Part shown: positions 26,893-60,695 of the stretch, piece by piece
How positions within the stretch are numbered: the stretch's first letter is position 1
Layout: every line of letters starts with the position of its first letter
Assembly (NCBI RefSeq): GCF_964199755.1
Contig: NC_133896.1
Span: 203,207,471-203,271,470 of the forward strand
Length of the DNA: 64,000 nucleotides
Reading direction: 5' to 3'
Source of the DNA: Larus michahellis
Lineage: Eukaryota
Notes under the pieces: model-generated
What the model was told of the DNA's origin: nothing
Seen by the model: only the letters and a program-made list of their open reading frames with translations
Database searches by the model: none
Made by a program: the position numbers and the translations under genes

Positions 26893-27534
26893 GTTCTATA
26901 GTAGTACTTGATATGATTTATGGCAAATTAGAACAATACTTTTACTGATTTCCAAGTCAGCTGGTAAATTAGTATGGCAAGTAAGCAGTAAAACTTCAGA
27001 GTTGCATGGGAAGTATAAACATGATGGGGTCCTTGGTCGTTCTGTAAAAAGTATGGGAAGGGCAACATCTTTCTGCAGACACACATCTCAAACTGTACTG
27101 TCAGTTATACTAGAAAATTGCTGATGTGGTCTTTGATTCCCAAGATTGAAGTAGTGCAAAATTTCTACCCCAGTTAGGCAGAATCTTATTGTACTCTCCA
27201 CAGAAGCTCTGTCTCCTTCCTCTCCCCGCACCCCACCCCTCCCTGGGCTTTTACTCTACCTGCTATGCCTTGTTGCATTTTTCACTTAGGTAGAGCTGCT
27301 TTGTAAAGGACTTTCCCAAAGAAAAAAATTTCTCTGTGCACATTTCAGATGGGGAGTTGGAGCCCTGCTCCCCTCCCGAGTGTTCAGGTCACCCCAGTAA
27401 TGCGCTGTGTACCAGACAGTCTGGTAGTTACCCTTGCTGCTGGAAATTACTTCTCACCTGAGCCCTGCAGTGCTAACTCCCACCTCGCCTCTGCAGCTGA
27501 AATTGTGGCAGGTTTTTTCACAGAATCCCACAGT

Positions 27535-27768
27535 ATCTGAGGTTGGAAGGGTGCTCTGGAGATGGTATAATCCAAATCCCTGCTCAGAGCAGGATGTCGG
27601 GTAGAGCAGGTTGCCCTGGATGATGTCCATTTTGTTTTGGTGTCCAAGGAGTGGGAACGCCACAGCCTCTCTGGGCAGCCTGTACCAGTGCTTGGTCACC
27701 TTTACTAAAAGTTTCCTGATGTTCACAGGGAGACACCTGTGTTCTGGTTTGTGCCCATTGTCTCTGGT
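27535..27768 (-). mobile_element. CR1 copy B, 3'-terminal part. It is separated from the rest of copy B by the insertion of CR1 copy A.
   Basis: The reverse-complement CR1 3' terminus (cacagaatcccacagtatctgaggttggaagggtg…) encodes the ORF2 C-terminus on the - strand (…[32 protein letters not shown]…). Confidence 0.75.
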
Positions 27769-28868
27769 CACAGAATGATAGGGGTTGGAAGGGACCTCTG
27801 GAGATCGTCTAGTCCAACCCCCCTGCCAGAGCAGGGTCACCCAGAGCAGGTTGCACAGGAACGCGTCCAGGCGGGTTTTGAATGTCTCCAGAGATGGAGA
27901 CTCCACAACCTCTCTGGGCAGCCTGTTCCAGTGCTCTGCCACCCTCAGGGTAAAGAAGTTCCTCCTCATGTTTAGGTGGAACTTCCTATGCTCAAGTTTG
28001 TGCCCATTACCTCTTGTCCTGTCCCCGGGCACCACTGAAAAGAGCCTGGCCCCATCCTCCTGACACCCACCCTTTAAGTATTTATAAGTGTTGATAAGAT
28101 CCCCCCTCATCTGTCTTTTTTCCAGACTGAAGAGACCCAAATCCCTCAGCCTTTCTTCATAAGGGAGGTGTTCCAGTCCCCTAATCATCTTGGTAGCCCA
28201 TTGCTGTACCCTTTCCAGCAGTTCCCTGTCCCTCTTGAACCGGGGAGCCCAGAACTGGACACAGTACTCCAGATGCAGCCTCACCAGGGCAGAGTAGAGG
28301 GGGAGGATGACCTCCCTTGACCTGCTGGCCACACTCTTCCCTATGCAGCCCAGGATGCCATTGGCCTTCTTGGCCACAAGGGCACATTGCTGGCTCATGG
28401 TCATCCTGTTGTCCACCAGGACTCCCGGGTCTCTTTCAGCTGAGCTGCTCTCCAGCAGGTCAGCCCCCAACCTGTACTGGTGCATGGGGTTACTCCTCCC
28501 CACTTGCCCTTACTGAATTTCATAAGGTTCCTCTTTGCTCAACTCTCCAGCCTGTCTGTGTCTCTCTGTATGGCAGCACAGCCTTCTGGTGTGTCAGCCA
28601 CCCCCCCCAGCTTTGTGTCATCAGCAAACTTGCTGAGGGTGCACTCTATCCCTTCATCCAGGTCATTGATGAATATATTGAAGAGCACTGGACCCAGTAC
28701 TGACCCCTGGGGAACACCACTCGTCACTGACCTCCAACTAGACTCTGTGCCCCAATCACAACCCTCTGAGCTCTGTCTTTCAACCAGTTATCTATCCACC
28801 TTCCTGTCCATTCATCTAACCCACTCTTCCTTAGCTTCCCTATGATGCTGCTGTGGGAGACCGTGTCA
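27769..28868 (-). mobile_element. CR1 copy A, 5'-truncated, about 1.1 kb. It carries the ORF2 RT C-terminal region and 3'UTR and is inserted inside CR1 copy B.
   Basis: Starts cacagaatgataggggttggaagggacctctggagatcgtctagtccaacc. The - strand ORFs carry the CR1 ORF2 motifs [40 protein letters not shown] and …[21 protein letters not shown]…. Confidence 0.85.
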
Positions 28869-29300
28869 GGTCCTGTCCCTGGGCACCACTGGGAAGACTC
28901 TGTCACTGTCATTTTTATACCCTCTCATTAAGATGTTTATAAGTATTTATAAGATTTCACCTTGCCTTCAGTCCCAGCTCTTTCAGTTTTTTATAACATT
29001 AAAGATGCTCCAGTCCCTCAATTGTCTTCCATTCACTGAACTCAATCCAGTATGTCCACGTCTCTTGTACTGGGGAGCCCAACACACAGGACACACACTC
29101 CAGATGTCTCACCAGTGCTGAGTAGAGGGGAAGGATCATTCTCTCCATATGCTGGCAACTTTCTTTGTAACACAGTGCAGGATGTCATTGGCCTTCTTTG
29201 TGGCCAGGTCACATTCTTTGCTCTTGGACTTGCTGTTCACCAGGGCCCCCAGGTCCTTACCTGCAGAGCCTCAGTTCCTCTGCCATACATCACCGTGTTG
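28869..29300 (-). mobile_element. CR1 copy B, 5' part. It resumes the copy B sequence after the copy A insertion.
   Basis: cctgtccctgggcaccactgggaag… is collinear with the homologous portion of copy A (ctgtccccgggcaccactgaaaag…). Copy B-left ends …gtctctggt and B-right continues cctgtccc…, as expected for one interrupted element. Confidence 0.7.
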
Positions 29301-29784
29301 GTTGGCGTTTTAAGGTGAGTCTGGTGTCCCCGGGAGTTGAAGTCAGAGTCCAGTCTCTAGGTTCTTCTACTGGTCCTTTTATTCTGCTGGGGTGAGTCCA
29401 CCCTTTTTCCTTTGTTCGTACCGCAGCTTCCATAGTCAACAGCACCTGAAAGGGACCCTCCCATTGGGGAGTTTTTACTCTCCATGTTTTTACTAAAACC
29501 CATTCTCCAATTTTAATGTTATGGATCTTAAAATCCAACAGCGTAGTTTGTGGGAGCAACCCTTTATTTCTTAGTTGTTCCAAGTTCTTTGCAATCTGCA
29601 TTACATATTGTTTAATACTAGCCTCCCCTCCTTCATAAGTAGCCATTTCCTGCTGTGAAGCCAAGAAGGGCAAACCAAACATCATTTCATAGGGAGAGAC
29701 TCCGAGATCCGTTCTGGGTTGAGTTCGAACCCTGAGTAATGCTAAAGGGAGGCACTTGACCCATGACAGTTGAGTTTCTATCAT
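29290..29784 (-). CDS. ERV integrase C-terminal domain ORF (164 aa), ending at the truncation junction.
   Basis: Contains …IKIGEWVLVKTWRVKTPQWEGPFQVLL…, an SH3-like integrase C-terminal domain. The stop codon lies directly at the boundary with CR1 copy B. Confidence 0.75.
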   Translation of the reverse strand: MIETQLSWVKCLPLALLRVRTQPRTDLGVSPYEMMFGLPFLASQQEMATYEGGEASIKQYVMQIAKNLEQLRNKGLLPQTTLLDFKIHNIKIGEWVLVKTWRVKTPQWEGPFQVLLTMEAAVRTKEKGWTHPSRIKGPVEEPRDWTLTSTPGDTRLTLKRQPTR

Positions 29785-29804
29785 TAATTTGGTTAAAGCC
29801 TTTT

Positions 29805-30410
29805 TTAAAGTCTGATCATTTGTTCACCCCTTCCTGAGCTTTGGGGATGCCATGGAGTGTGTAACTCCCATTGAGTACCTAAGGCTTGAGTTATCTGGGT
29901 GATTATTTTGGAGGTGAAATGCGTTCCTCTGTCAGAGTCTATTCTATGAACCATTCCGTATCTAGGAATAATTTGTTCTAGCAGGATCTGTGTTACTACA
30001 TTAGCCGATGTTCTAGTGAGTGGAATTGCCTCCACCCAATGGGTAAGATGGTCTACTAATACCAAGAGAAACTTCCACCTTTGGACTTGTGGAAGTTCTA
30101 TAAAATCCACTTGTATACTTTGAAGGGGGCGTAAGGCCAACTCCCGCCCTCCGTGGATGGGTTTTCTCATTACCTTTTTATTCACCTTTTGGCAAGTTAT
30201 ACACCTATTGGTGATTTGTTTAGCTGCTCCGAACACCCCTATGCATCCAAATTTTCTAAGAAAGTGATCGCAAATGGCCGGTGTTCCCCAGTGGGTTTCT
30301 CTATGCAATTCCACCAGTATTTTTCTTGCTAATGTTTTATTTACTATCTGATGCCCATCAGGCAACACCCATTTTCCTTCCAGAGTCTTTTCTCCTCCCA
30401 TTCTAGTCAA
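29805..30410 (-). CDS. ERV integrase N-terminal zinc finger plus catalytic core (201 aa ORF).
   Basis: HHCC spacing (HRETHWG…CITCQKVN), catalytic D in IQVDFIEL, D in IDSDRGTHFTS, E in HPQSSGRGEQMIRL. Confidence 0.8.
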   Translation of the reverse strand: MTRMGGEKTLEGKWVLPDGHQIVNKTLARKILVELHRETHWGTPAICDHFLRKFGCIGVFGAAKQITNRCITCQKVNKKVMRKPIHGGRELALRPLQSIQVDFIELPQVQRWKFLLVLVDHLTHWVEAIPLTRTSANVVTQILLEQIIPRYGMVHRIDSDRGTHFTSKIITQITQALGTQWELHTPWHPQSSGRGEQMIRL

Positions 30411-30449
30411 TTCCTTTTCTTCAGCTTCAGTGAATTCAGGAATATTATC

Positions 30450-32210
30450 TCACTCCTCTTTTCTCTGTTGAACAACTAATGATTTCTCTTCCCCATTTTC
30501 AGCAGCCTCTTTCGCCTCTTGGTCTGCTAGATTATTTCCCCTTATTTCTGGTGTTAATCCTTTCTGATGCCCCTTTACGTGGACTACTGCAATTTCCTTA
30601 GGCAGGGTTAAAGCTTCTAATACCTTCAATATTAACTCCTCATGAACTAGTCCTTTTCCTTTTGAAGTTAGTAATCCTCTTTCTTCCCAGATTTTTCCAA
30701 AAGTATGTACCACCCCAAATGCATATTTAGAATCTGTATAAATAGTTCCTTCCTTATGTGCTAGAAATTCTAATGCCCTTTTTAAGGCATATAACTCACA
30801 GCTTTGAGCAGACCAATTAGATGGCAGTTTTCCTTCTTCTGTAATCGTCGTGTTACTCCCATCTATTATTGCATATCCAGACATTCTTTTCCCTTGCATA
30901 CACCTAGATGATCCATCTATGTATATCTTTTCTCCTGCTGATAGGGCTTGGTTGGTCGAATCTTCTCTGATTTTTGTCTGATAATTTATTACTTCTAAAC
31001 AATCGTGTACTAGTTCCTCTTTATGTTCCCCATACAGAAACTGGGCAGGATTTTGATTCTTACCTGTTACCAAGGTTAGGTCTTCATTGTCTGGTAAAAT
31101 GGCCTCATATTTCAACATCCTAGAATCTGTCAACCATTTATCTGCTTTCTGATTTAAGATATTCCGTACAGAGTGTGGAGTGTGAACTATCAGCTTACCC
31201 CTGAAAGCGAGTTTTTGACTTTCTTCCACAAGTATCGAGGTAGCGGCTACCGCTTGGATGCATATTGGCCAACCTCGGCTGACTGGATCTAATAATTTTG
31301 ATAAGTACGCTATTGGTTTCCTCACCCCTCCCCATCCCTGGGCCAAAATTCCATGGGCTGTCCCATTTTCCACATTGACAAACAAATGGAAGGGTTTCTC
31401 TAATGATGGTAGGCACATAACCGGAGCTTTTATCAGTTTTGACTTTAGTTCTTCTAGTTTTTCTTTGTCATTCTGTGTCCACTCTGTCTTATCTTCCCCC
31501 ATCAATTTTTCATATAAAAATTTCACTGCCTGGGTATACCCCTCGATCCATAATCTCCAGTACCCTAGTAGTCCTAATAACTTCCTTACTTCTCTTCTTG
31601 TAGTTGGGGGTGGGAGGGATATTATTCCAGCAATCCTCTTGGGGTTTAATTTGCGGCTTCCCTGACTTATTATATGCCCTAAGTATCGTACTTCAGGTTC
31701 TACAAATGGTAACTTTCCCTTGGAAACCCTTAAACCTTTCTCTCCTAAAAAGTTTAATAACTGAATTGTTACTTCTCTGACTAATTTTTCTTCTTCCCCT
31801 GATATTAATAAGTCATCTACATACTGAGTGATTTGAGTTTTCGGAGGGGTGTGAAAAGATTGTAACAGCTCCTCCAGAGCCTGTCCAAACAGGTTGGGAG
31901 ACTCTGTAAACCCTTGAGGTAGCTTTGTCCATCTGAGCTGCTGTTTATGTCCGGTGTTTGGGTCCTCCCATTGAAAAGCAAAGATATCTCGACTTTCCTC
32001 AGCCAGGGGACATGCCCAAAACGCATCTTTTAAATCCACTACGCTAAACCAGCTATGTTCTGGGGGAACTTTGCTCAGAAGGGTATAAGGGTTTGGTACA
32101 ACATGGTACCGAGTTAAAGTTCTCTTATTCACCTCCCGTAAGTCTTGCACTAACCTGTATGTCCTGTCAGGTTTCTTTACAGGTAGGATAGGAGTGTTAT
32201 GAGGAGACAT
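30450..32210 (-). CDS. ERV reverse transcriptase-RNase H (586 aa uninterrupted ORF).
   Basis: Contains LPQGFTESPNLFGQAL, YVDDLLISG, and the RNaseH motif IYIDGSSRC…GYAIIDG. Confidence 0.85.
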   Translation of the reverse strand: MSPHNTPILPVKKPDRTYRLVQDLREVNKRTLTRYHVVPNPYTLLSKVPPEHSWFSVVDLKDAFWACPLAEESRDIFAFQWEDPNTGHKQQLRWTKLPQGFTESPNLFGQALEELLQSFHTPPKTQITQYVDDLLISGEEEKLVREVTIQLLNFLGEKGLRVSKGKLPFVEPEVRYLGHIISQGSRKLNPKRIAGIISLPPPTTRREVRKLLGLLGYWRLWIEGYTQAVKFLYEKLMGEDKTEWTQNDKEKLEELKSKLIKAPVMCLPSLEKPFHLFVNVENGTAHGILAQGWGGVRKPIAYLSKLLDPVSRGWPICIQAVAATSILVEESQKLAFRGKLIVHTPHSVRNILNQKADKWLTDSRMLKYEAILPDNEDLTLVTGKNQNPAQFLYGEHKEELVHDCLEVINYQTKIREDSTNQALSAGEKIYIDGSSRCMQGKRMSGYAIIDGSNTTITEEGKLPSNWSAQSCELYALKRALEFLAHKEGTIYTDSKYAFGVVHTFGKIWEERGLLTSKGKGLVHEELILKVLEALTLPKEIAVVHVKGHQKGLTPEIRGNNLADQEAKEAAENGEEKSLVVQQRKEE

Positions 32211-32390
32211 ACAGGGTTCAAGGGTCCCATCAGAGATGAGTCCTTCAATTACTGGCTGGAGGCCTTTTTTCCCTCCATTGAAATGAGGTACTGCCTGACT
32301 CGTATGGGGTGATTCTCCCTTTCTATAGAGACTTTGATTGGTTGGATATTCAGACCTCCTCTGTTACCGGCCACCGCCCAAACTTGCTGA

Positions 32391-32783
32391 TTAATTTTGG
32401 ATTTGTCCTCCTGACTTAATATTTTTTGCAATCATTTTCCCCTCCTCGGGGATTACTCCAACCCCCAGCTGGATCCGCAAGTCTCTTCCTAACAAATTGC
32501 ACCCAGCTCCAGGCACTAACAAGATATTCCCTACACCTGTTTTGTCATTATCTTCAAAAACCACCTGCTTGATCACCGGGGCTTTAAAACTTGTCCCCTT
32601 TGCTCTCATTACATTAATTACTTCTTTATTTATAATGCTTCCTTTAGGTATGTTACAAACACAAGTTCGCTCAGCTCCTGTATCTACTAGAAATTCTAAT
32701 ACTTCCTCCTGGGGGCCCACTCCTAGGTTTATCAAGGGCTCAAGGTGAGAGCTGTCCCCCAGGAGGTAGAGCCCCTGACACCT
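32391..32783 (-). CDS. ERV aspartic protease region, in the same frame as the gag stop codon.
   Basis: Contains LVDTGAERTCV. There is a frame break between this ORF and the RT ORF (32210-32391). Confidence 0.75.
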   Translation of the reverse strand, partial: RCQGLYLLGDSSHLEPLINLGVGPQEEVLEFLVDTGAERTCVCNIPKGSIINKEVINVMRAKGTSFKAPVIKQVVFEDNDKTGVGNILLVPGAGCNLLGRDLRIQLGVGVIPEEGKMIAKNIKSGGQIQN

Positions 32784-32786
32784 CTA
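32720..32786 (-). promoter_or_regulatory. Candidate gag-pro UAG read-through signal (gammaretrovirus type).
   Basis: gag ends UAG and pro continues in the same frame. The downstream sequence UAG AGG UGU CAG GGG CUC… resembles the MLV purine-rich spacer plus CAGGG stem start. The pseudoknot itself is not verified. Confidence 0.45.
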
Positions 32787-34338
32787 ATCCTCAATTTCTC
32801 TAAACATTTTCTGATCTTTATCCCTTTGAGGACATTCCTTCTTAAAATGCCCAAGTTTCCCACAATAGAAACATCCACTTCCTTCATTCCTTTTCTCGGT
32901 TCCCAATGGTCCCCTTCTGGGAGGGATCTGATTCCCTCCAGAAGTCTCCTCCTGCCTCTCAGGATTCCGTCCCATCCCCCCCATCACCCTGGGATTTTTC
33001 TGAATATTTCCTTCCCTCATAGTGGCTACCATGATTTTAGCTTTTGCTGTAGCCTTCTCCTCATCTCTTCATAGGTACACTTTCTGAGCTTCCCTCCATA
33101 CTTCATTCAGGCCCCAATCCTGCCAGTCCTCTAGTTTCTCTAATTTTCTTCGAATGTCTGGCCAGGCGTGTGTAACAAATTGAACTCTCAGTAATGTTTG
33201 CCCCGCGGGACTCTGAATCTATTCCTGAGCACTGTCTCATGTCACGTCACAGCCTTTCAAGCCATTCGGTCGGGGTTTCCTCCCTTCCCTGCTGCCCATC
33301 AAATGCTTTGGTTATGTTCTGCCCTCTAGGGGTGGCTTCTTTTATACCTTTAATAATTAAATTTCGATAATCACTCACGTTCTTACGACCCTCTACATCA
33401 TTTTGATTCCAATTTGGGTGTACTATTGGCATCTTCTGGTCCCCAGGTGGGCCTTGCTGATTTTCCCGTTCCCAAATTCTCATCCCAGCTGTTCTAATCA
33501 TTTGCTGTTCTTTGGGAGAAAATATTATTATCGACTGCATTTCCTCCCAGGTATAAATATTAGGGCCTAGGAATTGGTCTAATTGTTCTGATAGGCCTAC
33601 TGGTTCTTCCAGTAACCCTTTTAATTCCTTTTTAAAGTTCCTGACTTCAGTGGGAGTCAAAGGAACGTTTACAAAGCCTGTCCCCCCTTGTGCTCCCCCC
33701 AGGGGTACTTCCCTTAAGGGGAATAAACTAACTCCTGGTGTTTCCTGCACCGTGTCTTGGTCTTCCGATTCCTTTACTTTAACAGAAGTTTTCCTCCCTA
33801 ACCTAGGAGAGTTTGTAAGTGACACTTTTTCAGTTAACCTCTGAGACCTGTCTAACCTTCTCCTAGCACTAGGTGTAGCTCTTTTCCCAGGAGAAGGGGG
33901 GGCTGTTGGAGGGAGGCGGTAGGGAGGGGGCAAAACTTCCAGAGGATCTCACCACTTCTCCTTTTCTTCCCTTGGGATCTCAGATATTTTAAAGGTACTA
34001 ACTCCTTTTGGCCAAATCTCCCCTTTCCAGCAGGAGGCATATTCACTCTCCTCTGGGCTGAAGGATTCTTTAGAGTTTACATAAAGGTTTAAAGCCTGGC
34101 ACATCCACCCTTCAAAGGACCCATGTCTAGGCCAATACAAATGGTCTGCTCATATAGGTTCCTTTGTCCATTCTGTCATACAATACTGAATCATTTTAAC
34201 TTTATCCTTATTTTTAGTATCCGGATCAATATTCCAATTAGCCAATTTTATCCCTAAAGGACTGTCTTGGGGTATATCTGCCGGCACTTTCCTGCTCCCC
34301 TGTTCCCTGGGACTCTTTTTACTTATCTTTTGTCCCAT
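32784..34338 (-). pseudogene. ERV gag, spanning MGQ-start matrix, PPPY-containing region, capsid with an MHR-like segment, and nucleocapsid CCHC. It is broken into at least four frame-shifted ORF pieces.
   Basis: MGQKISKK at about 34338; MPPPYRLPPTAPPSPG; …TKAFDGQQGREETPTEWLERL; CFYCGKLGHFKKECPQR. gag terminates with TAG at 32784-32786. Confidence 0.75.
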
Positions 34339-34805
34339 TTCAGCGGGGCTGTCTTCCACTCACCACAGCAGTCAAGCACCCAATTTTCCCGGGGCTGTCT
34401 TTCACTCAATATCTGACGCTTCGTCTCTTCACCGGCCAATTCCTTCGCGGGAGATTGGAACTCGTGGGAGATTGGAACCGTGGTTAGAAAGACTCCACAC
34501 TCGCTCCCCAGATCCAGACTGTCTGGTCCGAGTTCCACACACACAACAATCAAGCCCCAAACCCACCCAACCAAGCAGTACTTAACAGTCCTGTTTTCTT
34601 GCCTGGGTCTTCATGCACAAGAATTATGGGCTACCGTGGTTTTTCCTGGGGAGACTTACCCTTTTTGCTTTATGAGTCCCTCCTCTTGTGGGATTATCAG
34701 CTTGGAGTCTCAACAGGCACTAGGAAGTCCTCCGAGCAGGCTGCCGAAATCGGTGGGGTGCACCTCCTGCTCGGGGTCTCGGAGCCCACTGGGACCAAGT
34801 GAATT

Positions 34806-34823
34806 ATCCCGGACGAGCCCCCA
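34806..34823 (-). promoter_or_regulatory. Primer binding site complementary to the tRNA-Pro 3' end.
   Basis: The - strand reads TGGGGGCTCGTCCGGGAT, 18/18 identical to the MLV-type tRNA-Pro PBS, immediately 3' of the LTR end. Confidence 0.9.
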
Positions 34824-35300
34824 GAATTGTAATAAACAGCCAGATCCCTTAAACAGAAATGGCAGTTATTTTATTATAGGGACAAAGTCAATAAAGCAAA
34901 AGCACAGCGCTGGGTGCATGACTCAAGTCAGAGGCACACCAGCTAACACTTCACCCACGTCTTACATACATTCAATATTGCATACGTATTCACTATTTTA
35001 GGCAGAGTAATTGTTTACGATGATTATCTTTAGTCCCTTTTCTCTTCTATTTGTGCGTTTCCTTCTAGCAATTGTTTCTGAGGATCGATGATCTTCAGTT
35101 CCCTTTTCCCGTGCATCTGTTTCCTTCTGGTAGGATCGATTATCATCAACTCCCTTCTCCTATGCATCTGTTTCCTTCTGTTAATCATTGTGGGGTCTTT
35201 TGGAGAAGTTCTCTTTTGTTTCTCTCGGATGTTTTCTTCATAGCTGCTGTTAGTTGTTATCTTAGAGGTTTCTCATGTTTCCTAATTTACTAAAGGTTAG
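34824..35300 (-). repeat. ERV 5' LTR (U3-R-U5). The upstream (higher-coordinate) boundary is uncertain, at about 35300-35480.
   Basis: U5 ends at the PBS. There is a sense-strand AATAAA at 34870-34875 (+ strand tttatt), a TATA-like TAAAATAG at about 34995-35005, and U3 direct repeats. No 3' LTR copy is present to define the other edge. Confidence 0.6.
35054..35180 (-). repeat. About 2.5 copies of a roughly 50-bp tandem direct repeat inside LTR U3 (enhancer-type repeat).
   Basis: aggatcgatgatcttcagttcccttttcccgtgcatctgtttccttctg and taggatcgattatcatcaactcccttctcctatgcatctgtttccttctg, preceded by the partial gtgcgtttccttctagcaattgtttctg. Confidence 0.7.
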
Positions 35301-38300
35301 TTATCCTTCTAAGTCAAATATTCATAGCCTTGTTATAATGGCGAAAGCCAACAATACCTTCACAGGGGGAAGGGGGCTGAGGAGGTGGGAAGACTGATCG
35401 GCACCTTGTTTCGCCTTGCCCTTTACTAAGGAGTTCCCTGTCATTTTCTAGTGGTAATAAAATTGTAATATAAAAATCATCAGACAATAATGTCTAAGTT
35501 ACACCAGGCTCTGGAAATAAACAAGCTACAAGCACTTACTCTCAAAATCTAAAAAAGACAATACAGTTAAAACTTTATCACACATGTAGTAGTAACAGAA
35601 AAAAACGACTTAATTTTTTCAAAGTTTGACTCAAAAGAGATTTTTCTATGCACCTGACATTCTGTCCTGACCGTGTAGCTGTTGGGAATTCAGCCTTCTC
35701 GCTTGTCCTTAGGTATCAGAGTGTCCCTGTGTGAAAGAGCCATTTGGCAGCCTCAGCGTTTGGCAGCTTTCCCAGGCATCTCGGGGCTTTTCTGTCCTCA
35801 ACTTGGAATTTCCTTCCTGTGAAGGGAAAAGTGGGTGGCCAAGGTTCCTTGGAGATACAAGTGTTTCTTTGACTGTCTAAATAATGACTCCTCTCAGTGG
35901 AGTGATAAAATCCTTTCTTTCTCTTTCCCCATTATTCCTTTGTGTGTGTGCGTGCACTTCAGATTGCAGCCTGAACCTGACTGACAAAAGCCTAATGGCC
36001 TAATTAAATGGCATTAAAAATCGAGGGAAGATTAGATAAAAATCTAAGTGGATTGAATTGTATTTGGGGCAGAATGTGCAATAGCAAACTGTGAAAAAGT
36101 TGCAAAAGACTCAGGGAGAGGGAGTCACATCAGTCACTTGGAAAAAAATTGTACCTGCTCAGTTTGATCTTCCTTAGCTTGTCGCTGAGCTGCATTTTGT
36201 AGAGCCGAGAGCTGGCCGCGGCGTGTCTCTGCACTCCCTTCTTCAACGCCGAAATAAATTTGCGCACAGTTCTGTTACACCAGAAAACGCGCTGGGCTCC
36301 CATTTAGTTGGTATTGAGGTCAAAGTCTGCTGTCAGGCTGCTGCTGCTGGGGGTTCCTGAACAGCGGTAGAGAATTCCAGAGAACCTCTTGGAAGGGCTA
36401 TCTGGGAAAGCGTTCGCATTTCCCAGCTCTTTATCCAACTGCATTTGCTAATGCATTGCTCTGTCGTTCGCTATTTGAGTTCTTGTAGTTTGCTGTACTC
36501 TGATTACAAAAGTACATTTTCAAGGAAGTTACCACTTCAGTCTCTCTCGTAACTGCTCACCTGAATCATATTTATTTCCTGAAAATGTTCTCCATTCCTT
36601 TAGGCCGTACACTCTCAGAACTGAAGATGACTTTCAGTCACACCCTGATCATGTGCAAAGTGCTGCTCTTCAGGCTGGAGTTACAAGGACCATCAGGGGT
36701 GAGAATATAGTCACGTTGTCACTCAGAGCACTTAACAGTGGTTGTGACTTTTGTGATGGAGTCTGTTTCCTTTGTGCTCTGTTATCAGTCTCTTTGCATT
36801 ACTTTTGTGCCCAACACCTGTTCTTCTTTTCTCTGTTTCTCTCTATGCTCTTGGGCACAAGAATAGTGCTGTTATCCAATAACACAGTAATTAAATCTGT
36901 GGAGAAGGATGGATTCATCACTCTCACATTACCTCTATTCTTTCTGCTTGTAGACAGGCCTGCCCTGCCCTGCGGGACCGGAGGGAATAGGGCTGTTTGA
37001 AATGATGGGGAGAGGGACCAGCACGGAGGTGGTGTGTCCCCCACCAGCACCCCGGACTGGAAAAGACACATCCCTCAGGAAGAACCTGAATCAACGTCTG
37101 CTTGCAACACTGGAGATCCCTTTTCCTGTAGGAGGGGATGAGTTACAGCTTTTGTGACCTTGTGCTCTTCAGCCTCTGGCAGAGAAGGTGGTACCCGCTG
37201 TTCAGCAGAGTTGAGGGTTTCACAGTAAAGCTGATGTTGGCCAACTCTGATGTGTAACTGAGGCCTTCGCTCCCTTTTTATCTAGACTGTACTGGAAGCA
37301 GATTTTCTTTCCTGATCTCCGATACTAGTGCTGGGAAATGGTGTTGGTACCAGGGTTGAAGTTTGTACATGCTACAACAGGAATCAGTGTAAATGATATA
37401 TTAAAAGACTGCTCCTTGGTTAAATGATTTGTTTGGGACTAAAAAAAAGCCTTTAGAGTTAAATTAAATGAGTAAGAAAGTATTTTTAAGCACTAAAGTA
37501 TGTGATAAAAGATAGGAAATTGATGACTTTTATATCTAAAGAAAAAACGACAGTGTGGATTATGTTTAGGTTGCAGTAGAGTTTCAAAGAGCACAGAAGT
37601 CTTAGTTACCTAGAGGCAACTGTGTGAGCCACCAACAGCTGGAAAGGACTGGAAGGAAATGGTAACCAACGGGGAGATTAAGGCTGCAGTAAGATTTCAC
37701 TGTCCATGCAGTTAAATAGCCCAATAAAAAGATGAAAAACAAAAACCATGAGTGAAATGAATAATGAAAAATGAATTTTGATGCGATGACAATTGCACTG
37801 TAATATATCACCATTTTTTTTCAGGGTTTCTGTAGCTATTATAAAACCGTTTCAAAGTAATCGGTGAATAACAGGATGCTTATTTTCTATTTCCTGAACT
37901 CAGCAAGGCAGTGAACCTGAGCCAAGGGCCTGGCAGGAACCTCACCGGGTTCAGAAAAGGCGAAGGCGAAGTCCTGCAGTGGGTACGGAATAACTTTGAC
38001 GCAGTTGTGCAGCCTGGGCACAGACTGGTTGCAAAGCAACTTTGCAGAGGCTGATCTGGGAGCCCTGAGGGACAAGTGAAGATCAAGGTGTCCAGCCCTG
38101 CCCGGGCTCTGTTGGAAGAGCACAGCTGAGCTGCGGCAAGGATAGCAATCGTTCCTCTCTGCTCAGCGCTTCTGGGCTCCTAAAAACAAGATACATATGG
38201 GAACAAGTCCAGCGGAGGCCACCAAGATGATCAGGAGGTTGGAGCATAAGAGCCACGGGGATGGACAGTGGGGTTTGTTTAGTCTAGAAGACAGGAGGTC

Positions 38301-45780: not shown

Positions 45781-47729
45781 CTGAAAGACCAAACAAGCGA
45801 GGCATGTATTTCACATCATAAAATGACTTTACCAGACAGACCTCATGAAAGCTGACGCAGAAAAGGATTCCGGGATTACCTTTTTGGATTCCTGATTTTC
45901 AGGAGCGAATGCCTTCATCACTCCAACATCATTTACACACAGATGAACCCCAAGCCCCAATACTTTCTTAATAAAGTATTGATCTATCAGGTCCACAATA
46001 ACAAAAAGCTGAGACAAATGCACTGCGGCAGCTTGAAAACCATTCCAATTAGCCAAGTATTTTGAAGGCTCTTTATGTACAAAGATGTCCCTGAAACAAC
46101 AGCACGTTCCTCGTGGCTAAACAGAAAGAGGCACCCACTTCCCCAGCCTGGCTGACTCACCAACCTGATGCCAAGTAAGTCACTGTATAATTTTACCGGC
46201 AATACTATTGGAAAAATGCAGGTCCCGGTTAAACTCTACTAATAATGCAGTGAAAAAGTAGCACGGCTACCATTAAAGAGCCAAACTGGGAGGGGTTGGG
46301 GTTTTTTTGGGTGTGGGGAGGGTTTAATTTAAGCGAGTAGTGCAGCCTTCAAAGACGGACCACATTAACCAACAGCATTTGGCACCTTTACAAGCAGGTT
46401 ACCAAGTAATCCTCTTCAGAAAGCCCTTTTGACACAAATGGGTTTTAAAAGCTTTTGCAAGGCAAAGGTCCCGACTCTCAGCTTTGCAGCTTTTTCAGCT
46501 GTTGGTCAGAGCAGAGTCCCCCGCTCCGTGCCAGCCAAGACCACCATCTGCAAATTTCTAAAACTGACGCGTTTGGCAGCAAAGAAGCCACACGAACTGC
46601 CACACCAAAGCAAGCCCAGAGCTTCCAGATGCCAGACAAAGCCGTATTAAATATGGGAAATTAAACAGCTGTCTTTTTTCAGTACACTGTCCTAGTTTCC
46701 AGCAATCTGATTTAGAGGCATCTAAAACTAGAGACTGCAGCCAAATCACACCTCTCCTTACATCTACTTAATCCCTTCTAAAATCCCCTGTGTTTGCAAC
46801 CACAGCATTCTGCAACAACAAGATCCGTAATTCAGTTTTTCTGTGCAAAAATATTCCTCTGTTTCAAACCTATCACTAAATCATTCGACAGGGTGGCCTG
46901 GAGAACCAGCCTCATGGCTTTGGGTTATTTTATTTTGTTGTTGTTTTCTGATTTTATTTTAAATTTTGACCTTTTAATCTGTCCCAAGGTGATGTGTGTC
47001 ACTGCCCTGGGCCTGTCCTCACAGAAGCTACTCTATTTCTGATCATCTTTATTTTTCCTTTTTGCTTCGTCTGTTTTTGCAATAAGGTAACTGGAATGGT
47101 ATGTGCTATTTAAGGCATTCAGACACCATGGATTTACATTTTATTTTCAGATCTGCTACTGCTATATTATCTTCCCTTTTTGATTGACAAGAAGCACTGA
47201 ACTGGTACTTTCAGGTAACGAATCTAGAAGTTTCCTCAGTCGGTAATTACTCCCTGTATAATTGACATTACCACAGTGATACCCCACAGACATCAGATTA
47301 GCCAAAACTGAAAGTGGCAGATTTTAAACAGGAAACAAACCGGAAAAGGCATCAAATAGCAAATGAGTGACAAAGTTTCAATACACTGAACAGCAGGTAC
47401 CAGAGCACTTCTATCTGCATCCTTGCTGTTGCCTTCAAACCCTTCACTCACAAGTCATGATTTCCTTCCCTGGGGGAAAATCAACATACTCCACTTATCC
47501 ACTTCAGCTGCCCCTGCTGACTTTAACTTCTACGTTTGAAAAATTATTATTAGTTTTTACGCTGTTAGCACTTATTTTTTTCCCCATTTAGCCTGCTGTA
47601 GGAAGAAAACATTCCTTCTAGCTTCTATCTGCTCAGGAGAGATGTTCGATGCAGTGATCTACAATACCTCAGACAAGCTTTACAGTGTGTTAAAAATACT
47701 GGCATGACAATACTTTCCTCCCAGTATGA

Positions 47730-48745
47730 AACCGGATCAGAACACTGGGTCAGCAAAAATCATTAGCACAAAGTCTAGCTGGAAGCCAGTCGCTACTGAA
47801 GTACCCTCGAGGTCAATACTGGGTCCGGTCCTGTTTACCATCTTCATTAATGGCCTGGATGACGGGGCAGAGCGTACCCTCAGCAAGTTTGCAGGGAACA
47901 CAAAACTGGGAGGAGTGGCTGATATACCACAAGGTCATGCTGCCATCCAGCGGGACCTTGACAGGCTGGAGAAATGGGCCAACACGAACACCATGAAGTT
48001 CAACAAGGAGAAGTACAAAGTCCTGCACGTGGGGAGGAACAACCCCAGGCACCAGTACGTACTGGGGGCCAGCCAGCTGGAAAACACCTTGGCAGAAAAG
48101 GACCTAGAGGACACCAGGCTGAACACGAGCCAGCAACGTGCCCTTGCTGCAAAGGCCGACGATGCTAAGCTGCATTAAGTCAAGTATTGCCAGTAGTCCA
48201 ATGGATTCCCCTCTCCTCATCACTGGAGAGACCACACCTGGCATACTACATCCAGTTCCAGGCTCCTAAGAGAGACATGGAAATACTGGAGAGAGCCCAC
48301 AAAGATGACGAAGGGAGTGGAGCATCTGACACAAGAGGAAAGGCTGAGAGAGCTGGGACTGTTCAGCCTGGAGAAAAGAAGGCTCAGCAGATCTTATGAA
48401 CATGTATGTATCAATAAACACCTGAAGGGAGGGGGCAAAAAACAATAGAGCCCGGGTCTCTTCAGAGGTGCCCAGTGACTGAACAAGGGGCAATGGGCAC
48501 AAACTGAAACACAGGAGGTTCCCTCTGAACACCAGGAAAGACATTTTTACCATGAGGGTGACTGAGCACTGTCACAGGTTGCCCAAGGAGGTTGTGGAGT
48601 CTCCATCCTTGGAGATTTTCAAAAGCCGTCTGGACAGGGACCTGGGTAACCAGCTCTAGGTGGCCCTGCTTCAGCAGGGGGGTTGGACAAGATGACCTCC
48701 AAAGGTTCCTTCCAACCTCACTCATTCTGTGTTGCTGTGATTCTG
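47730..48745 (+). mobile_element. CR1 LINE, 5'-truncated, about 1 kb (ORF2 RT C-terminal part plus 3'UTR).
   Basis: + strand ORFs contain ILGPVLFTIFINGLDDGAERTLSKFAGNTKLGG… and …LERAHKDDEGSGASDTRGKAERAGTVQPGEKKA. The 3' end reads …ggttccttccaacctcactcattctgtgttgctgtgattctg. Confidence 0.85.
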
Positions 48746-50568: not shown

Positions 50569-52528
50569 CTGTGCAGAAAGCGAGAAGACGGAAGGATGGA
50601 CAACAATGACAAATCCCCCGTTAGAAAACAGCACAACACTGAAGTAAGCAGAAGTGCAGAAATTAATTAAAAAAAAATAATAGTTACAATTCGGAAAAAC
50701 AAGCTTAGATATTTGCTCTGCAAATGCTAACACAACTTGAAACTCAGGATCCCACTCCATAAATGTTTTATCTTTACCCAGGCACCACTACACATCTGAT
50801 CCCACAGAAGCAGCAACACTCAGGATTACCAAGTGGACTAGGGAAAGAAAAATAGAAAATAGATAAACCCCTAAAGTTCTGTGAAAATATCTAATCTGCT
50901 GAAGTTCAGAACTGTAAACTTTCTTGCAATTGTTTATCCGAATAAATGGGTTTCTGCAGAACTATTCAGAATTACTAAAGCAACACTTCCAAGTGCCTGT
51001 TCCTAGGAATCTCAGTTCAAATGGTACTCCAGGCATGCAGTAAGTTAACAGAATTTGCCCCGAATCGTTGTTTAGCTATGTTAGACAGTCACTGTTTCCA
51101 AGGCCGTTCAGTGTTACTTACGGCATGAATTTCAGGGGATGTCAACCAAAGACTTGACAAAAGTACAGGGAAGTCTAAAGAAAGCTTTACTTTGAAGAAC
51201 GCAAACGCACTCTCTTGGTCACTTGCTTTTAAAACACTGACAATTCAGGGAAAGGCACGACAGATATACATTTCTATCTTCATGAGGCCTTTCAAACGTT
51301 ATCTTCTGAAATTTGTTTCAGCTCTGAACTTTCATCTGTGCTTTCAATCCATAATCTTCCATAAATAAATAAAACCACCCACAGCCCCCCAACAAAATCC
51401 CACAAAAATCAAACACCATCTCAGAGAAAAAAAAATTAAGTGCCAAGAATTCCCCCCCCCTTCTAAAAGGTACGATCCAACTCCTACAGTTAAATGATAG
51501 TGACTTGATAAACACATTTATATGTTTATCCGCACACAGCTAAACTTGTTCCAGTAAGTTACTGGAAATGAAGATGCTGTTCTTTGTATCTGCACAGCAA
51601 AACAAATACCCAGAATAAGTCACTGTAGGCTGCCAATTATAAAGTGTGTACAGCTGTGCATCACATATCAATATGTATTATGTATTAAATACATTAAAAA
51701 CAGTGAAGGTCAAAACTGAAGTTCATGGAGGCAGCCAAATTATGAGGAGATTTTGGACTGAAGTGGCTGAGGAAACCACAAGTGTGTTATCATCTTCTTT
51801 ACAGAAAATGTGAATTCCCCACACTTGTTAAGCTCTGCAGAGGATAGAAGAGAAACAATCCCACATTGTCTTGGACAGAAAAGCTTTTGTAGCCTCTTCT
51901 GCAAACAAACTGCCTCACGCAGCCTACATATAAATATAGCGTGTTTATCAGCAAGGGGAACTTTGGTGAAATTATTTGATCCAAACAAAAAAAATATTAA
52001 GAGGACTACAGACTGTTTTAAGGGTCTTAGAATTTTCCCATTACAACAAAATTAAAAGAAAGGAAAATTAAAAATTTCCTTTGTGATGGGGGAGTAAAGG
52101 TGCAGAACAGGCAGTGGGAAGGAGACTGCAAACCAGTTATTTTATTTCTGTCCTGCAACGAAACGCCAGAAGTCAATCACAGCAACACCCAAGTGAAAGA
52201 TTCTCTTTTCTGGAATTTTTCTCTTTCTGCTGACAACCAGATTATCTCAAGTTTAAGATCACATCTGCATTTCTTTGAGCAAAACAATGGAAGAGGATGA
52301 TGAGCCACATTTAGCACTGTATGCTGACAGCATCTGCATTTATTGTTTAGATATAACAGTATGTTACAAAAATGGATTAAAACACTGCCTAGATGAGTTA
52401 AGAGTAGTATTTGCATTTCAAATATAGTACATGTTCCCTAAATCAATTCTACAAATACGTTTTTATGTTTTATTAGTTTGCCAAAAGTATTTATTATTAA
52501 ACCGCACCAGGACAAACATTGAATTTAC

Positions 52529-52615
52529 CTTCATTAAAGCAGTTTCACCACTGCTCTGCTGCATGTTCACATACGCCCCAGCTTCCAGAAGAATAGCTAC
52601 TGTTGTTAGAAAATT
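52529..52615 (-). CDS. MPHOSPH8: MPHOSPH8 ankyrin repeat exon: NFLTTVAILLEAGAYVNMQQSSGETALMK.
   Basis: Acceptor gggtttttttcag|AAT and donor AAG|gtaaat. 29 codons. Confidence 0.8.
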
Positions 52616-53430
52616 CTGAAAAAAACCCACAAACCCACAAGACAAGTAAGTAGAAAATATTCTGGTTTTGTTTCAGAATATATAGCGACATTTATTTAAA
52701 AATCCATCAGTAAAATCCAAAGCATGAGGCATGACACAATTAACATTGTTCTCTCCCATGGCTAGCAAAGAGCAATTCAGATTCAGGCAAGTGGACAGCC
52801 GTGAATATTTACAATTCTTACTTTTTTCTAGATCTTGCAGTAGTGAACAGCACAGGAAGAAAACAGTACGTTTGCATTAACCAACAAACTGGAATCAAGC
52901 CCCCTTCTGGCCTTGTACCTACTGCACACAGGAAAACACATGAACCAACTTGAAAAGAGCGCACCCATGAAACATTCTCTAACTTACTAGTCTAGTTGGT
53001 CTGAGCTCGAGCAGAGCTCGCCACCATCTCCATCTCCCAACTCTCAAATAGTAAACCCTGCTTAATCAGAGATTTGCTCTCCAAGTCCCCCAAGTTTGGA
53101 TCCTGTGTAGCGGGAGATCGTAACAAGCAATTCTAACACAAGAACTTCAGCCCCCACGACAGCAAAATTCAGAGACATCCTTTGCCTCCACTCCTTTACC
53201 TCCGCTTTCCCTCTAGGTAACCCTATGATATTTTCTACTCAGGGTAGGGTTTGTGATCAGGATTTATTTACACTAGAGTAATCACAGCTGCTGAAATTAT
53301 GCAGTTAAGGTCACCCTGCTATATCCTGCTAAGTACCTTTTAGGCATCATCCAAGGGAAAAAAATTGCGTACCACTTTAAATGTAAGTAAAAGAGCCAAG
53401 AAACACAAATACAACAATAACGAAGCCAAC

Positions 53431-59840: not shown

Positions 59841-60695
59841 CTCCCCAGCTGAATCAGTGGACTTGGATCCTCTTTCATCAGCACCCAATTTCAAACCCTT
59901 CTGCACTGGTGAAGGAGCAGGTGACACTTTCTCCAACTCTCCCGGTACCGTTTTTATTTTTTCTTGACCTTTTTGCTTTTTGTGCATGCTTTTCTTCTCT
60001 AAATAGATATCCTGAGTTTCCACTTTTCTACCTTCCTCTTTATAATCTTCAGCTTTCTGAATTTTTTTCTTCTTTCTTTTAATCTTAACATCAATACTAT
60101 CATCTTCATTACTCGCTGATCCATCAAGATGTCTATCGGCAACGGAATCTTTTTCAGCAAGTTCTTGTTCCAGTCTCTCTTCTCCACTTACTAGCTTTTG
60201 CTTCTCATCTTTATTTTCAGAATTTAAGTCTGAATTTTCATTATCAGTTCCTTGAGAAAACACATCATCGAGAGTACTTGACTCTGAGTCAAACTGAACA
60301 TCTCCACACTTCTCCTTCCGTGATTTTTTATTTTCTTTAGAATCTTCTTTAGATTTTATTTTTAAATCTTTAACATCTCCCTTCTTTTTCTTGATTTCTT
60401 TAGTATCTTCTTTCCTTTGCTTCTTTGGGTCCTTTGAATCCTCCTTGGTTTCTGAAGTCCTTTTTTTTGGTTTTGAATCTGAAACCAAAGTATCTGAGGA
60501 ATTTTCACAGTCTGTTCTGGGTTTTTCTTTGAGTTTTGCAGACTTAGACTTTTTCTTCTTCAGATCATCTGGACTTCTATCCTCTCCATCTTTTGACTTC
60601 TTCTTTTTTTTCTTTGGTGAAACATCATCTTTTGTTTCACTTTGCCAGTCACTGTCAGATTCTGCTTCAAATACATCATCATTTAGAGATAGTTT
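59841..60695 (-). CDS. MPHOSPH8: MPHOSPH8 large K/E/S/D-rich low-complexity exon (285 codons): KLSLNDDVFEAESDSDWQSETKDDVSPKKKKKK…STDSAGE.
   Basis: Acceptor ccttaccttttag|AAA and donor GAG|gtaagc. Its length is a multiple of 3. The RLSLN-DIFEA-SDSD start matches the MPP8 linker region. This is the 244-aa ORF from the track, extended to its splice sites. Confidence 0.8.

What the first reader, a model, noticed from the sequence alone, without database searches (positions are those of the whole stretch)
29290..35300. Gammaretrovirus-like ERV with an exact tRNA-Pro PBS and an in-frame UAG gag-pro junction.
The - strand carries a near-complete 5'LTR-gag-pro-pol provirus. Its PBS, TGGGGGCTCGTCCGGGAT, is 18/18 identical to the MLV-type tRNA-Pro site. 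gag starts with MGQ (myristoylation context) and has a PPPY late-domain motif. gag ends in UAG with protease in the same frame, the gammaretroviral read-through arrangement, followed by UAGAGGUGUCAGGGG…, which resembles the MLV spacer and stem. The RT-RNaseH ORF is 586 aa without interruption, while gag is shattered into frame-shifted pieces. The element is therefore old but not ancient. Class-I ERVs with these gamma hallmarks are a minority of avian ERV content.
Basis: partly seen in the sequence, partly recalled or inferred. Interest (0 to 1): 0.6.

Follow-up and report, generated by a model that had tools for sequence, protein, structure and literature searches.

The report
Degraded, 3'-truncated gamma-like bird ERV
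This is an ordinary dead copy of a gammaretrovirus-like endogenous retrovirus in a bird genome, with its 5' LTR, tRNA-Pro primer site, gag, protease and polymerase but no envelope gene or 3' LTR, from a group that is common in birds, not rare.

Summary
On the - strand there is a putative 5' LTR, then an exact 18-nt tRNA-Pro primer-binding site (34823-34806). gag follows (MGQ start, PPPY, Gag_p30 capsid, one zinc knuckle) and ends in UAG (32786-32784). Protease is in the same frame, followed by a 586-aa RT-RNase H ORF and integrase.

The RT matches MLV/XMRV RT far better than any other solved RT. The nearest proteins are ERV pol proteins of songbirds, at up to 79% identity.

Downstream of the UAG I find an 8-nt spacer and two interlocking helices. 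They sit at the codons where MLV has its read-through pseudoknot, and 13 related bird ERVs give moderate covariation support for them.

Three corrections:
- gag is broken mainly by four in-frame TGA codons plus one frameshift.
- pro-pol carries three frameshifts and one TGA.
- env and the 3' LTR are absent from the whole window. pol abuts an older CR1 fragment.

The rarity claim is wrong. Published surveys put gamma-like ERVs among the two most abundant ERV groups in all bird genomes.

Verdict: an ordinary new member of a known kind, of low interest.

The parts
34828..35364 (-). Putative 5' LTR (U3-R-U5). The 3' end (...TTATTACA) is well placed. The 5' start (TGTGAAGG at 35364) is a guess.
   Evidence: It lies directly upstream of the PBS. 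The end motif GTTTATTACA+ATTC+PBS parallels GTTTATCACA+ATTA+PBS and related forms in relatives whose LTR pairs are defined. Semi-global alignment of the L002/L003 LTRs starts at 35364, but scores only 0.5-1.9 sd above shuffles. There is no second copy in the window.
35081..35180 (-). 51-bp tandem duplication inside the putative U3. It is enhancer-repeat-like by analogy only.
   Evidence: Tandem Repeats Finder: period 51, 2.0 copies, 85% matches.
34870..34875 (-). AATAAA polyadenylation-signal motif, 42-47 nt before the LTR end.
   Evidence: Read directly from the sequence. Function is inferred.
34824..34827 (-). 4-nt spacer ATTC between the LTR terminal CA and the PBS.
   Evidence: Relatives have ATTA or ATTT at the same place.
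34806..34823 (-). Primer-binding site, 18/18 complementary to the 3' end of tRNA-Pro.
   Evidence: Unique exact match in the window. Identity with the MLV PBS-Pro and with a tRNA-Pro 3'-end primer comes from PMC4587795 and PMC10993922.
34339..34805 (-). 5' leader (untranslated), containing a 17-bp tandem repeat at 34445-34483.
   Evidence: No Rfam family matched.
32784..34338 (-). gag pseudogene: MGQ start, PPPY (33930-33919), Gag_p30 capsid, one CCHC knuckle (32876-32826). It ends in TAG at 32786-32784. Lesions are TGA at 34152, 33951, 33249 and 33071, and a frameshift near 33210.
   Evidence: Pfam Gag_p30 E=2.7e-11 and zf-CCHC E=4.4e-7. The only PDB capsid hits are gammaretroviral MLV-type capsids. 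Lesions were mapped against the intact Hirundo gag.
32705..32783 (-). Candidate read-through signal:
- spacer AGGUGUCA, 32783-32776
- S1 GGGGCUC (32775-32769) paired with GAGCCCU (32741-32735)
- S2 CCUCCUGGGGG (32766-32756) paired with CCCCCAGGAGG (32715-32705)
- loop UGAUAAACCUAGGAGUGGG, 32734-32716
   Evidence: Segments verified. The duplex for S2 is -33.9 kcal/mol against -14.6+-3.4 for shuffles. Across 13 related junctions, 79.6% of cells are paired against 30-61% when partners are slid, and there are 22 double-change cells against 11.5+-2.8 in shuffles. Single-sequence MFE z-scores are only -0.7 to -1.6. No Rfam match.
32391..32783 (-). Protease (VDTGA at 32687-32676), in frame with gag.
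   Evidence: Pfam RVP E=1.1e-5. Frame shown.
32211..32390 (-). End of protease and N-terminal part of RT, thrown out of frame by two 1-nt indels in A6 runs (about 32426 and 32266).
   Evidence: Frame comparison with Hirundo pro-pol. Sequences shown.
30450..32210 (-). Uninterrupted 586-aa RT-RNase H ORF (YVDD at 31823-31812), ending at TGA 30452-30450.
   Evidence: Pfam RVT_1 8e-27 and RNase_H 2.7e-21. PDB: MLV/XMRV RT 482 bits, foamy 142, Ty3 80, HERV-K 62, HIV about 54.
29293..30449 (-). Integrase: zinc-binding domain, core and C-terminal domain with GPF at 29457-29446. There is a 1-nt deletion near 29822.
   Evidence: Pfam Integrase_H2C2 and rve. MLVIN_C scores 26.5 bits, below the 29.2 cut-off. 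Alignment to the Hirundo IN runs to 29305.
29270..29300 (-). Break point. ERV homology stops and an older, 5'-truncated CR1 fragment begins in the same orientation. env, PPT and 3' LTR are missing.
   Evidence: Sequence. No LTR copy and no env-like sequence anywhere in the window.

Best explanation
The region is a fossil provirus of a class I (gammaretrovirus-like) endogenous retrovirus in a bird genome, on the - strand. It belongs to the same broad group as the 'avian gamma' ERVs that are abundant in songbirds.

When active, the virus would have worked as follows:
- It primed minus-strand DNA synthesis with host tRNA-Pro annealed to the PBS just after the 5' LTR.
- It made Gag from the MGQ (myristoylation-type) start.
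- It made Gag-Pro-Pol by occasional read-through of the gag UAG. Read-through would be promoted by an 8-nt spacer and a downstream pseudoknot placed as in MLV.

The copy is now dead. It has five in-frame TGA codons and four frameshifts. A later deletion, or less likely a rearrangement or assembly mis-join, removed env, the polypurine tract and the 3' LTR, so that pol abuts an older CR1 fragment.

What is shown: the gene order, the domains, the PBS identity, the frame relationship and the lesions. What is inferred: tRNA-Pro priming, read-through, pseudoknot function, the LTR 5' boundary and the deletion history.
For: - The exact and unique PBS-Pro lies at the expected place.
- Pfam finds Gag_p30, a single zf-CCHC, RVP, RVT_1, RNase_H, Integrase_H2C2 and rve in retroviral order on one strand.
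- The RT scores 482 bits to MLV/XMRV RT, against 142 or less for any other solved RT. The capsid hits only gammaretroviral MLV-type capsids in the PDB.
- The nearest proteins are bird ERV pol proteins at up to 79% identity, with 705 hits at E<=1e-10.
- The in-frame TAG followed by an 8-nt spacer is conserved in 12 related bird ERV junctions. One further junction has TGA.
- S1 and S2 show compensatory changes and beat the slid and shuffled controls.
- S1 3' (GAG CCC, Glu-Pro) and S2 3' (codons for Val-Gly-Pro-Gln) sit at the codons homologous to MLV's S1 3' and S2 3' arms. The MLV layout is taken from PMC13517186, combined with my own recollection of the MLV sequence.
- The GPF motif is present in integrase, as described for the avigamma1 clade (PMC3482500).
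- A related Hirundo rustica provirus (L001) has two 99%-identical LTRs, an intact gag and a gamma-type env. This shows what a complete relative looks like.
Against: - There is no second LTR and no target-site duplication, so the LTR boundaries and a true provirus structure cannot be proven.
- No epsilonretrovirus or other class I reference was available, so 'gamma-like' rests on MLV being the best solved relative and on architecture, not on a phylogeny.
- MLVIN_C is below Pfam's gathering score.
- The XMRV protease was not recovered by phmmer for the protease domain.
- Spacer position 1 is A, not the G reported as conserved in 19 gammaretroviruses.
- Single-sequence folding is not significantly better than shuffles.
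- No Rfam family matched at E<=10.
- The covariation test uses related coding sequences, and the structure was derived from them.
Confidence: 0.9

Rival explanations
1. The element is class I but closer to epsilon-like or 'intermediate' lineages (WDSV, HERV-W, marsupial ERVs) than to true gammaretroviruses. On this view 'gammaretrovirus-like' overstates the relationship.
For: [quoted passage not shown] RT identity to MLV is moderate. My reference set held no epsilonretrovirus.
Against: The stop codon, spacer and helices lie at the MLV-homologous codons inside the protease N-terminus. In WDSV the stop is at the penultimate residue of NC, and no pseudoknot was detected there (PMC13517186; PMC3835772). 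The PBS is Pro as in MLV. The capsid hits gammaretroviral MLV-type capsids only.
Confidence: 0.25
2. The 586-aa RT-RNase H ORF is kept open by selection, through host co-option or use in trans by other copies, rather than by chance.
For: None of the nine lesions falls in the 1761 nt of this ORF, which is 35% of the coding length.
Against: With nine random lesions, a lesion-free stretch this long somewhere in the element is expected about 20% of the time (my own broken-stick calculation). The ORF lacks the RT N-terminus, which is out of frame. It has no promoter or start context of its own. No identical gene product is on record.
Confidence: 0.04
3. The missing env and 3' LTR are an assembly artefact, with contigs mis-joined at a repeat, and not a real deletion.
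For: The break lies exactly at the edge of a CR1 repeat. Two of the four frameshifts are in A6 homopolymers, a typical long-read error site.
Against: The CR1 at the junction is itself an old fragment split by a second CR1. It is continuous with unique flanking sequence. Nothing else in the window looks chimeric. Raw reads were not available.
Confidence: 0.08

Closest known systems
Avian gamma-like ERVs ('avigamma1' clade of Bolisetty et al. 2012; the gamma ERVs counted by Cui et al. 2014)
   Same: Bird host. gag and pro-pol in one frame (the 0,0 strategy). One zinc finger in NC. GPY/F motif in integrase. Abundant in songbirds (PMC3482500; PMC4272516).
   Different: This copy has no env, so the clade's gamma-type env with an immunosuppressive domain cannot be checked. 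Its RT is at most 79% identical to any protein found, so the exact family is not identified. I did not place it in their tree.
Moloney murine leukemia virus (genus Gammaretrovirus)
   Same: Identical 18-nt PBS-Pro. MGQ gag start and a PPPY late domain. Gag_p30 capsid. UAG, then an 8-nt spacer ending in GUCA, then a helix starting at +9. Helix arms at homologous codons and a GAUAA motif in the long loop. RT 482 bits.
   Different: - Spacer G1 is A.
- The S1 hairpin encloses 27 nt, against about 8 in MLV.
- S2 has its G-run on the 5' arm, where MLV has the C-run 5'.
- About 14 nt lie between the S2 5' arm and the S1 3' arm, where MLV has none.
- Relatives have 4-nt U5-PBS spacers and apparently 5-bp target duplications.
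- The host is a bird.
Reticuloendotheliosis virus (the only known exogenous avian gammaretrovirus)
   Same: A gammaretrovirus that infects birds and uses gag UAG read-through (PMC13517186).
   Different: REV is reported to be of mammalian origin with no endogenous forms in the surveyed bird genomes (PMC4272516). The nearest relatives found here are native bird ERVs, not REV. I made no direct sequence comparison with REV.
Epsilonretroviruses (WDSV, and the unclassified SnRV)
   Same: Class I. gag-pro read-through in a single frame.
   Different: In WDSV the stop codon is at the penultimate NC residue, and no downstream pseudoknot was detected. From my own knowledge, WDSV uses a His PBS. Epsilon-like ERVs are rare in birds.

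Membership tests
Class I (gammaretrovirus-like) ERV | RT closest to gammaretroviral RT | tested here: met
   phmmer against the PDB: MLV/XMRV 482 bits, foamy 142, Ty3 80, HERV-K 62, FIV/HIV 52-58. The reference set lacks alpha, delta and epsilon RTs.
Class I (gammaretrovirus-like) ERV | gag and pro-pol in the same frame, separated by one UAG | tested here: met
   TAG at 32786-32784, with the protease continuing in the same frame.
Class I (gammaretrovirus-like) ERV | p30-type capsid and a single CCHC knuckle in NC | tested here: met
   Pfam Gag_p30 43.8 bits (cut-off 27.4). One zf-CCHC stretch. Gammaretroviral MLV-type capsids are the only PDB hits.
Class I (gammaretrovirus-like) ERV | Integrase C-terminal domain of MLV type with a GPY/F motif | tested here: inconclusive
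   The GPF motif is present at 29457-29446. Pfam MLVIN_C scores 26.5 bits, below its 29.2 cut-off.
Class I (gammaretrovirus-like) ERV | Gamma-type env (immunosuppressive domain, CX6CC) | tested here: not met
   There is no env in this copy or anywhere in the window. The feature is absent through truncation, so it is uninformative about the family. The relative L001 has an env with an ISD-like TM.
Complete provirus | Two LTRs flanked by a target-site duplication | tested here: not met
   The LTR/leader sequence occurs once in 64 kb. pol abuts CR1 at about 29290.
Complete provirus | PBS complementary to a tRNA 3' end just downstream of the 5' LTR | tested here: met
   18/18 match to tRNA-Pro, 4 nt after the LTR's terminal CA.
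MLV-type read-through signal | 8-nt purine-rich spacer with conserved G1 and G5, and functionally important G2, U6, C7 and A8 | tested here: inconclusive
   The window has AGGUGUCA. G2, G5, U6, C7 and A8 are present, but G1 is A. Relatives have GGAGGUCA, GGGUGUCA or AGGUAUCA.
MLV-type read-through signal | H-type pseudoknot starting 8 nt after the stop codon | tested here: inconclusive
   S1 cells are 90% paired with 2 covarying pairs. S2 cells are 78% paired with 5 covarying pairs. Both beat the slid and shuffled controls. Thermodynamic z-scores are weak. There is no experimental test.
MLV-type read-through signal | Match to a curated Rfam model | tested here: not met
   No retroviral RNA family matched at E<=10 in 29000-36000.
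Genus Gammaretrovirus sensu stricto | Monophyly with MLV, FeLV, GaLV and REV in a Pol phylogeny that includes epsilon and other class I lineages | not tested
   No reference sequences for these lineages could be obtained with the tools.

The most novel reading that the evidence does not exclude
The gag-pro junction of this bird ERV lineage may carry a conserved, enlarged variant of the gammaretroviral read-through pseudoknot. It has the same position and spacer as MLV. It differs in a 27-nt S1 loop, an internal loop of about 14 nt, and an S2 whose G-rich and C-rich arms are swapped. The recent review of animal-virus read-through signals that I read lists gammaretroviral ERVs only from mammals (PMC13517186), so this variant may be undescribed.
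Probability: 0.3. Interest if true: 0.3.

Novelty: new member of a known kind. Interest (0 to 1): 0.1.

Why it matters
It matters little. The element adds one more dead copy to a well-documented and abundant class of bird ERVs. It shows no sign of host function.

Two modest points may be useful. First, related bird ERVs switch freely between tRNA-Pro, tRNA-His and initiator-tRNA-Met primer sites while keeping the same U5 end. Second, their read-through signal looks like an enlarged version of the MLV pseudoknot. That could serve as natural variation for people studying how pseudoknot geometry tunes stop-codon read-through.

Tried and rejected
- The exact 586-aa ORF is not on record in the assembly collection, so the source genome and other copies could not be found.
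- An exact-match scan for the U5-PBS junction in metagenome and viral contigs gave 0 hits.
- A protein-guided scan of metagenome contigs found only relatives at 69% identity or less.
- The Rfam scan of the element gave only chance-level hits.
- ARAGORN found no tRNA genes in the window.
- Alignment of the relatives' LTRs to define the LTR start is barely above shuffles. I therefore give 35364 only as a guess.
- Single-sequence folding of the junction gives z = -0.7 to -1.6. I do not rely on it.
- I considered an alternative S2 register (31-38 with 78-85 in alignment A2). It scored lower than the register I report.
- I considered selection on the RT ORF and judged it unsupported, because a lesion-free stretch of this length has about a 0.2 chance.
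- I considered an env-less retrotransposon design and rejected it. Such an element would still have a 3' LTR, and the related L001 has an env.
- PDB searches with the integrase and the protease were uninformative for genus assignment. The best integrase hit is PFV, and the protease hits only HIV protease weakly.


Full report
**Observation**

I read 28500-36500 on the - strand and listed the ORFs. The 18-mer TGGGGGCTCGTCCGGGAT occurs exactly once in the window, at 34823..34806 on the - strand. In 128,000 strand positions about 3e-6 chance matches are expected. The same 18 bases are the MLV primer-binding site for tRNA-Pro (probe TTTGGGGGCTCGTCCGGGATTT, PMC4587795). They are also the first 18 bases of a primer stated to hybridise to the 3' end of human tRNA-Pro (PMC10993922).

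gag begins at 34338 (MGQKISK) and PPPY is at 33930..33919. gag ends in TAG at 32786..32784. The protease (VDTGA, 32687..32676) follows in the same frame with no intervening stop. The ORF 32210..30450 is 586 aa.

**What the genes are**

Pfam finds the following in retroviral order on one strand:
- Gag_p30
- a single zf-CCHC
- RVP
- RVT_1, RT_RNaseH and RNase_H
- Integrase_H2C2 and rve
- MLVIN_C (this hit is below the gathering score)

Comparisons with solved structures:
- The RT-RNase H ORF scores 482 bits to MLV/XMRV RT. It scores 142 to foamy virus, 80 to Ty3, 62 to HERV-K and about 52-58 to FIV/HIV.
- The capsid part of gag hits only gammaretroviral MLV-type capsids.
- Integrase and protease were uninformative for genus.
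- Integrase has the GPF (GPY/F) motif at 29457..29446.

The closest proteins in 5.8 billion are ERV pol proteins from birds. They come from Cyanistes caeruleus (78%) and many Hirundo rustica loci (up to 79% over substantial coverage). In total 705 hits have E<=1e-10.

These features match the published 'avigamma1' description: the 0,0 strategy, one zinc finger, GPY/F and a gamma-type env (PMC3482500).

**State of the copy**

I aligned the intact gag and the pol pieces of a related Hirundo provirus (L001) to the window.
- gag has in-frame TGA codons at 34152, 33951, 33249 and 33071. Three of these sit where the relative has Arg, which is consistent with CGA-to-TGA decay. gag also has one frameshift near 33210.
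- Between protease and RT, two 1-nt indels in A6 runs (about 32426 and 32266) put 53 codons out of frame.
- A TGA at 30452 ends the long ORF.
- A 1-nt deletion near 29822 breaks integrase.

So gag is broken mostly by stop codons, not frameshifts, and pro-pol is not intact either.

Five stops in 1671 codons imply roughly 2% divergence since inactivation. With typical bird neutral rates (my own knowledge, about 2-3e-9 per site per year) that is of the order of 5-10 million years, with wide error.

The lesion-free 1761-nt stretch is not remarkable. With nine random lesions, a gap this long is expected about 20% of the time (my own broken-stick calculation).

**What is missing**

The LTR/leader sequence has no second copy in the 64 kb. 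tblastn with the relative's env pieces finds nothing. No env-like ORF lies downstream.

ERV homology stops at about 29305-29293. A CR1 fragment begins there in the same orientation. That CR1 (29285-28890, continued near 27690-27454) is itself split by a second CR1 (28885 to about 27700). It is far more decayed than the ERV, so it is the older element.

The simplest history is integration near the CR1 followed by a deletion that removed env, the PPT and the 3' LTR. A mis-assembly cannot be excluded without reads.

**LTR**

The LTR's 3' end is well supported. Relatives with defined LTR pairs end ...TTTATCACA or ...TTTTTCACA, followed by a 4-nt spacer (ATTA or ATTT) and the PBS. The window reads ...GTTTATTACA + ATTC + PBS. 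An AATAAA lies at 34875..34870, and a 51-bp duplication at 35081-35180.

The 5' boundary is uncertain. TGTGAAGG at 35364 resembles the TGTGAAAAG start of the L002/L003 LTRs, and semi-global alignments start there. Those alignments score barely above shuffles.

**Read-through signal**

After UAG comes AGGUGUCA, then GGGGCUC. From the review of read-through signals (PMC13517186), MLV has an 8-nt spacer G1-A8, with S1 starting at G9-C33 and S2 closing with G18-C58. Its functionally important loop-2 bases are G35, G36, U38, A39 and A40.

The window keeps G2, G5, U6, C7 and A8 but has A at position 1. It has two interlocking helices:
- S1: GGGGCUC (32775-32769) paired with GAGCCCU (32741-32735)
- S2: CCUCCUGGGGG (32766-32756) paired with CCCCCAGGAGG (32715-32705)

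The 19-nt loop between S1 3' and S2 3' contains GAUAA, as MLV's loop does. At the codon level, S1 3' covers Glu-Pro and S2 3' covers Val-Gly-Pro-Gln. These are the positions of MLV's Glu-Pro and Val-Gly-Gly-Gln arms (the MLV sequence is from my memory and is consistent with the numbering).

I collected 13 junctions from related bird ERVs.
- Twelve have an in-frame TAG and one has TGA. All have an 8-nt spacer, and in the Hirundo copies it is GGAGGUCA.
- The duplex between the S1 interior and the downstream arm is more stable than mononucleotide shuffles in all 11 sequences tested (fraction of shuffles at least as stable <=0.014). For the window it is -33.9 against -14.6+-3.4 kcal/mol.
- On the 13-sequence alignment, 79.6% of cells pair, against 30-61% when partners are slid. 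There are 22 double-change cells against 11.5+-2.8 in shuffles (0 of 500 shuffles reach the observed value). S1 is 90% paired with two covarying pairs, and S2 is 78% paired with five.

Caveats apply. The sequences are related and coding. The structure was derived from them. Single-sequence MFE z-scores are only -0.7 to -1.6. No Rfam model matches. The full 11-bp S2 with a 2-nt L1 is probably not sterically compatible with S1, so the working S2 is likely the 6-7-bp G/C core.

I rate the pseudoknot as likely but unproven. It would be an enlarged variant of the MLV one: a 27-nt S1 loop, a 14-nt internal loop, and S2 arm polarity swapped.

**Comparison with the literature and novelty**

That is contradicted.
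- Cui et al. found beta- and gamma-related ERVs the most abundant in all 48 bird genomes, for example 322 gamma of 725 in zebra finch. They also report an expansion in oscine passerines (PMC4272516).
- Bolisetty et al. found 470 gamma-like ERVs of 1,221 in zebra finch and 208 of 492 in chicken (PMC3482500).

The element is a new copy, possibly of an uncatalogued family, within a known and abundant kind. I could not run RepeatMasker/Dfam, search the source genome, or build a phylogeny with epsilon and other class I references. 'Gamma-like' therefore rests on the MLV-best match and the MLV-type architecture.

**Verdict**

The finding is ordinary, with interest 0.1. The only mildly novel thread is the conserved enlarged read-through pseudoknot in this bird lineage.

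Noticed in passing
window 59754-60488 (-) and about 52466-52672 (-): A 244-aa ORF matches bird MPHOSPH8 (MPP8, a HUSH silencing-complex subunit) at 80-91% over the part covered by the partial bird MPP8 entries in the NCBI records. An ankyrin-repeat-like exon lies about 7 kb downstream. The ERV is on the same strand, about 17 kb further downstream. Whether it sits in an intron or beyond the gene's 3' end was not determined.
   Followed up: partly
window 27454-29285 (-): Nested CR1 LINEs. An old 5'-truncated CR1 (29285-28890, resuming near 27690) is split by a younger CR1 that carries a 349-aa ORF remnant (27454-28503). More CR1 RT fragments lie at 47726-48178 (+).
   Followed up: partly
L001 7081, L002 11345, L003 7234, L004 2630, L005 3562, L010 14289, L015 5522, L017 1393: Related bird ERVs use different primer sites. 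L001-3 use an initiator-tRNA-Met-type PBS (TGGTAGCAGAGGATGGTT). L004, L010 and L017 use tRNA-Pro. L005 and L015 use a tRNA-His type. The tRNA assignments for Met and His are from my memory. The L001-L004 LTRs end in CA followed by a 4-nt ATTN spacer before the PBS. L002 and L004 appear to have 5-bp target-site duplications (ATTGC, AGAGA) rather than the 4 bp of MLV.
   Followed up: partly
L001 6658-17650 (Hirundo rustica QRBI01000210.1): A nearly intact, young relative. Its LTRs are 99% identical, its gag ORF is 714 aa, and env is present. It has an array of 60-bp tandem repeats in the leader (7965-8572). One premature TAA lies eight codons before the gag TAG.
   Followed up: partly
one search hit list (P0063, P0064, P0068): RT relatives from a stingray (Hypanus sabinus), a skate (Leucoraja erinacea) and a corn snake (Pantherophis guttatus) are 57-59% identical to this RT. 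That is closer than several other bird ERV lineages (45-48%). It hints at cross-class transmission of this retroviral lineage, or possibly at contamination.
   Followed up: no
window about 32426 and about 32266 (-): The two frameshifts that knock out the RT N-terminus are opposite 1-nt indels in A6 homopolymer runs, 160 nt apart. If they are sequencing errors, pro-pol would be open from the gag UAG to the TGA at 30452.
   Followed up: no
window 34445-34483: A 17-bp tandem repeat (2.4 copies, GTTCCAATCTCCCACGA on the - strand) lies in the ERV leader between the PBS and gag.
   Followed up: no
L007 2674 and L003 about 1840 (-): A more distant bird ERV lineage (about 47% RT identity) has an in-frame TGA instead of TAG at the gag-pro junction, followed by a GGAGGACC or AGAGGACC spacer.
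   Followed up: no
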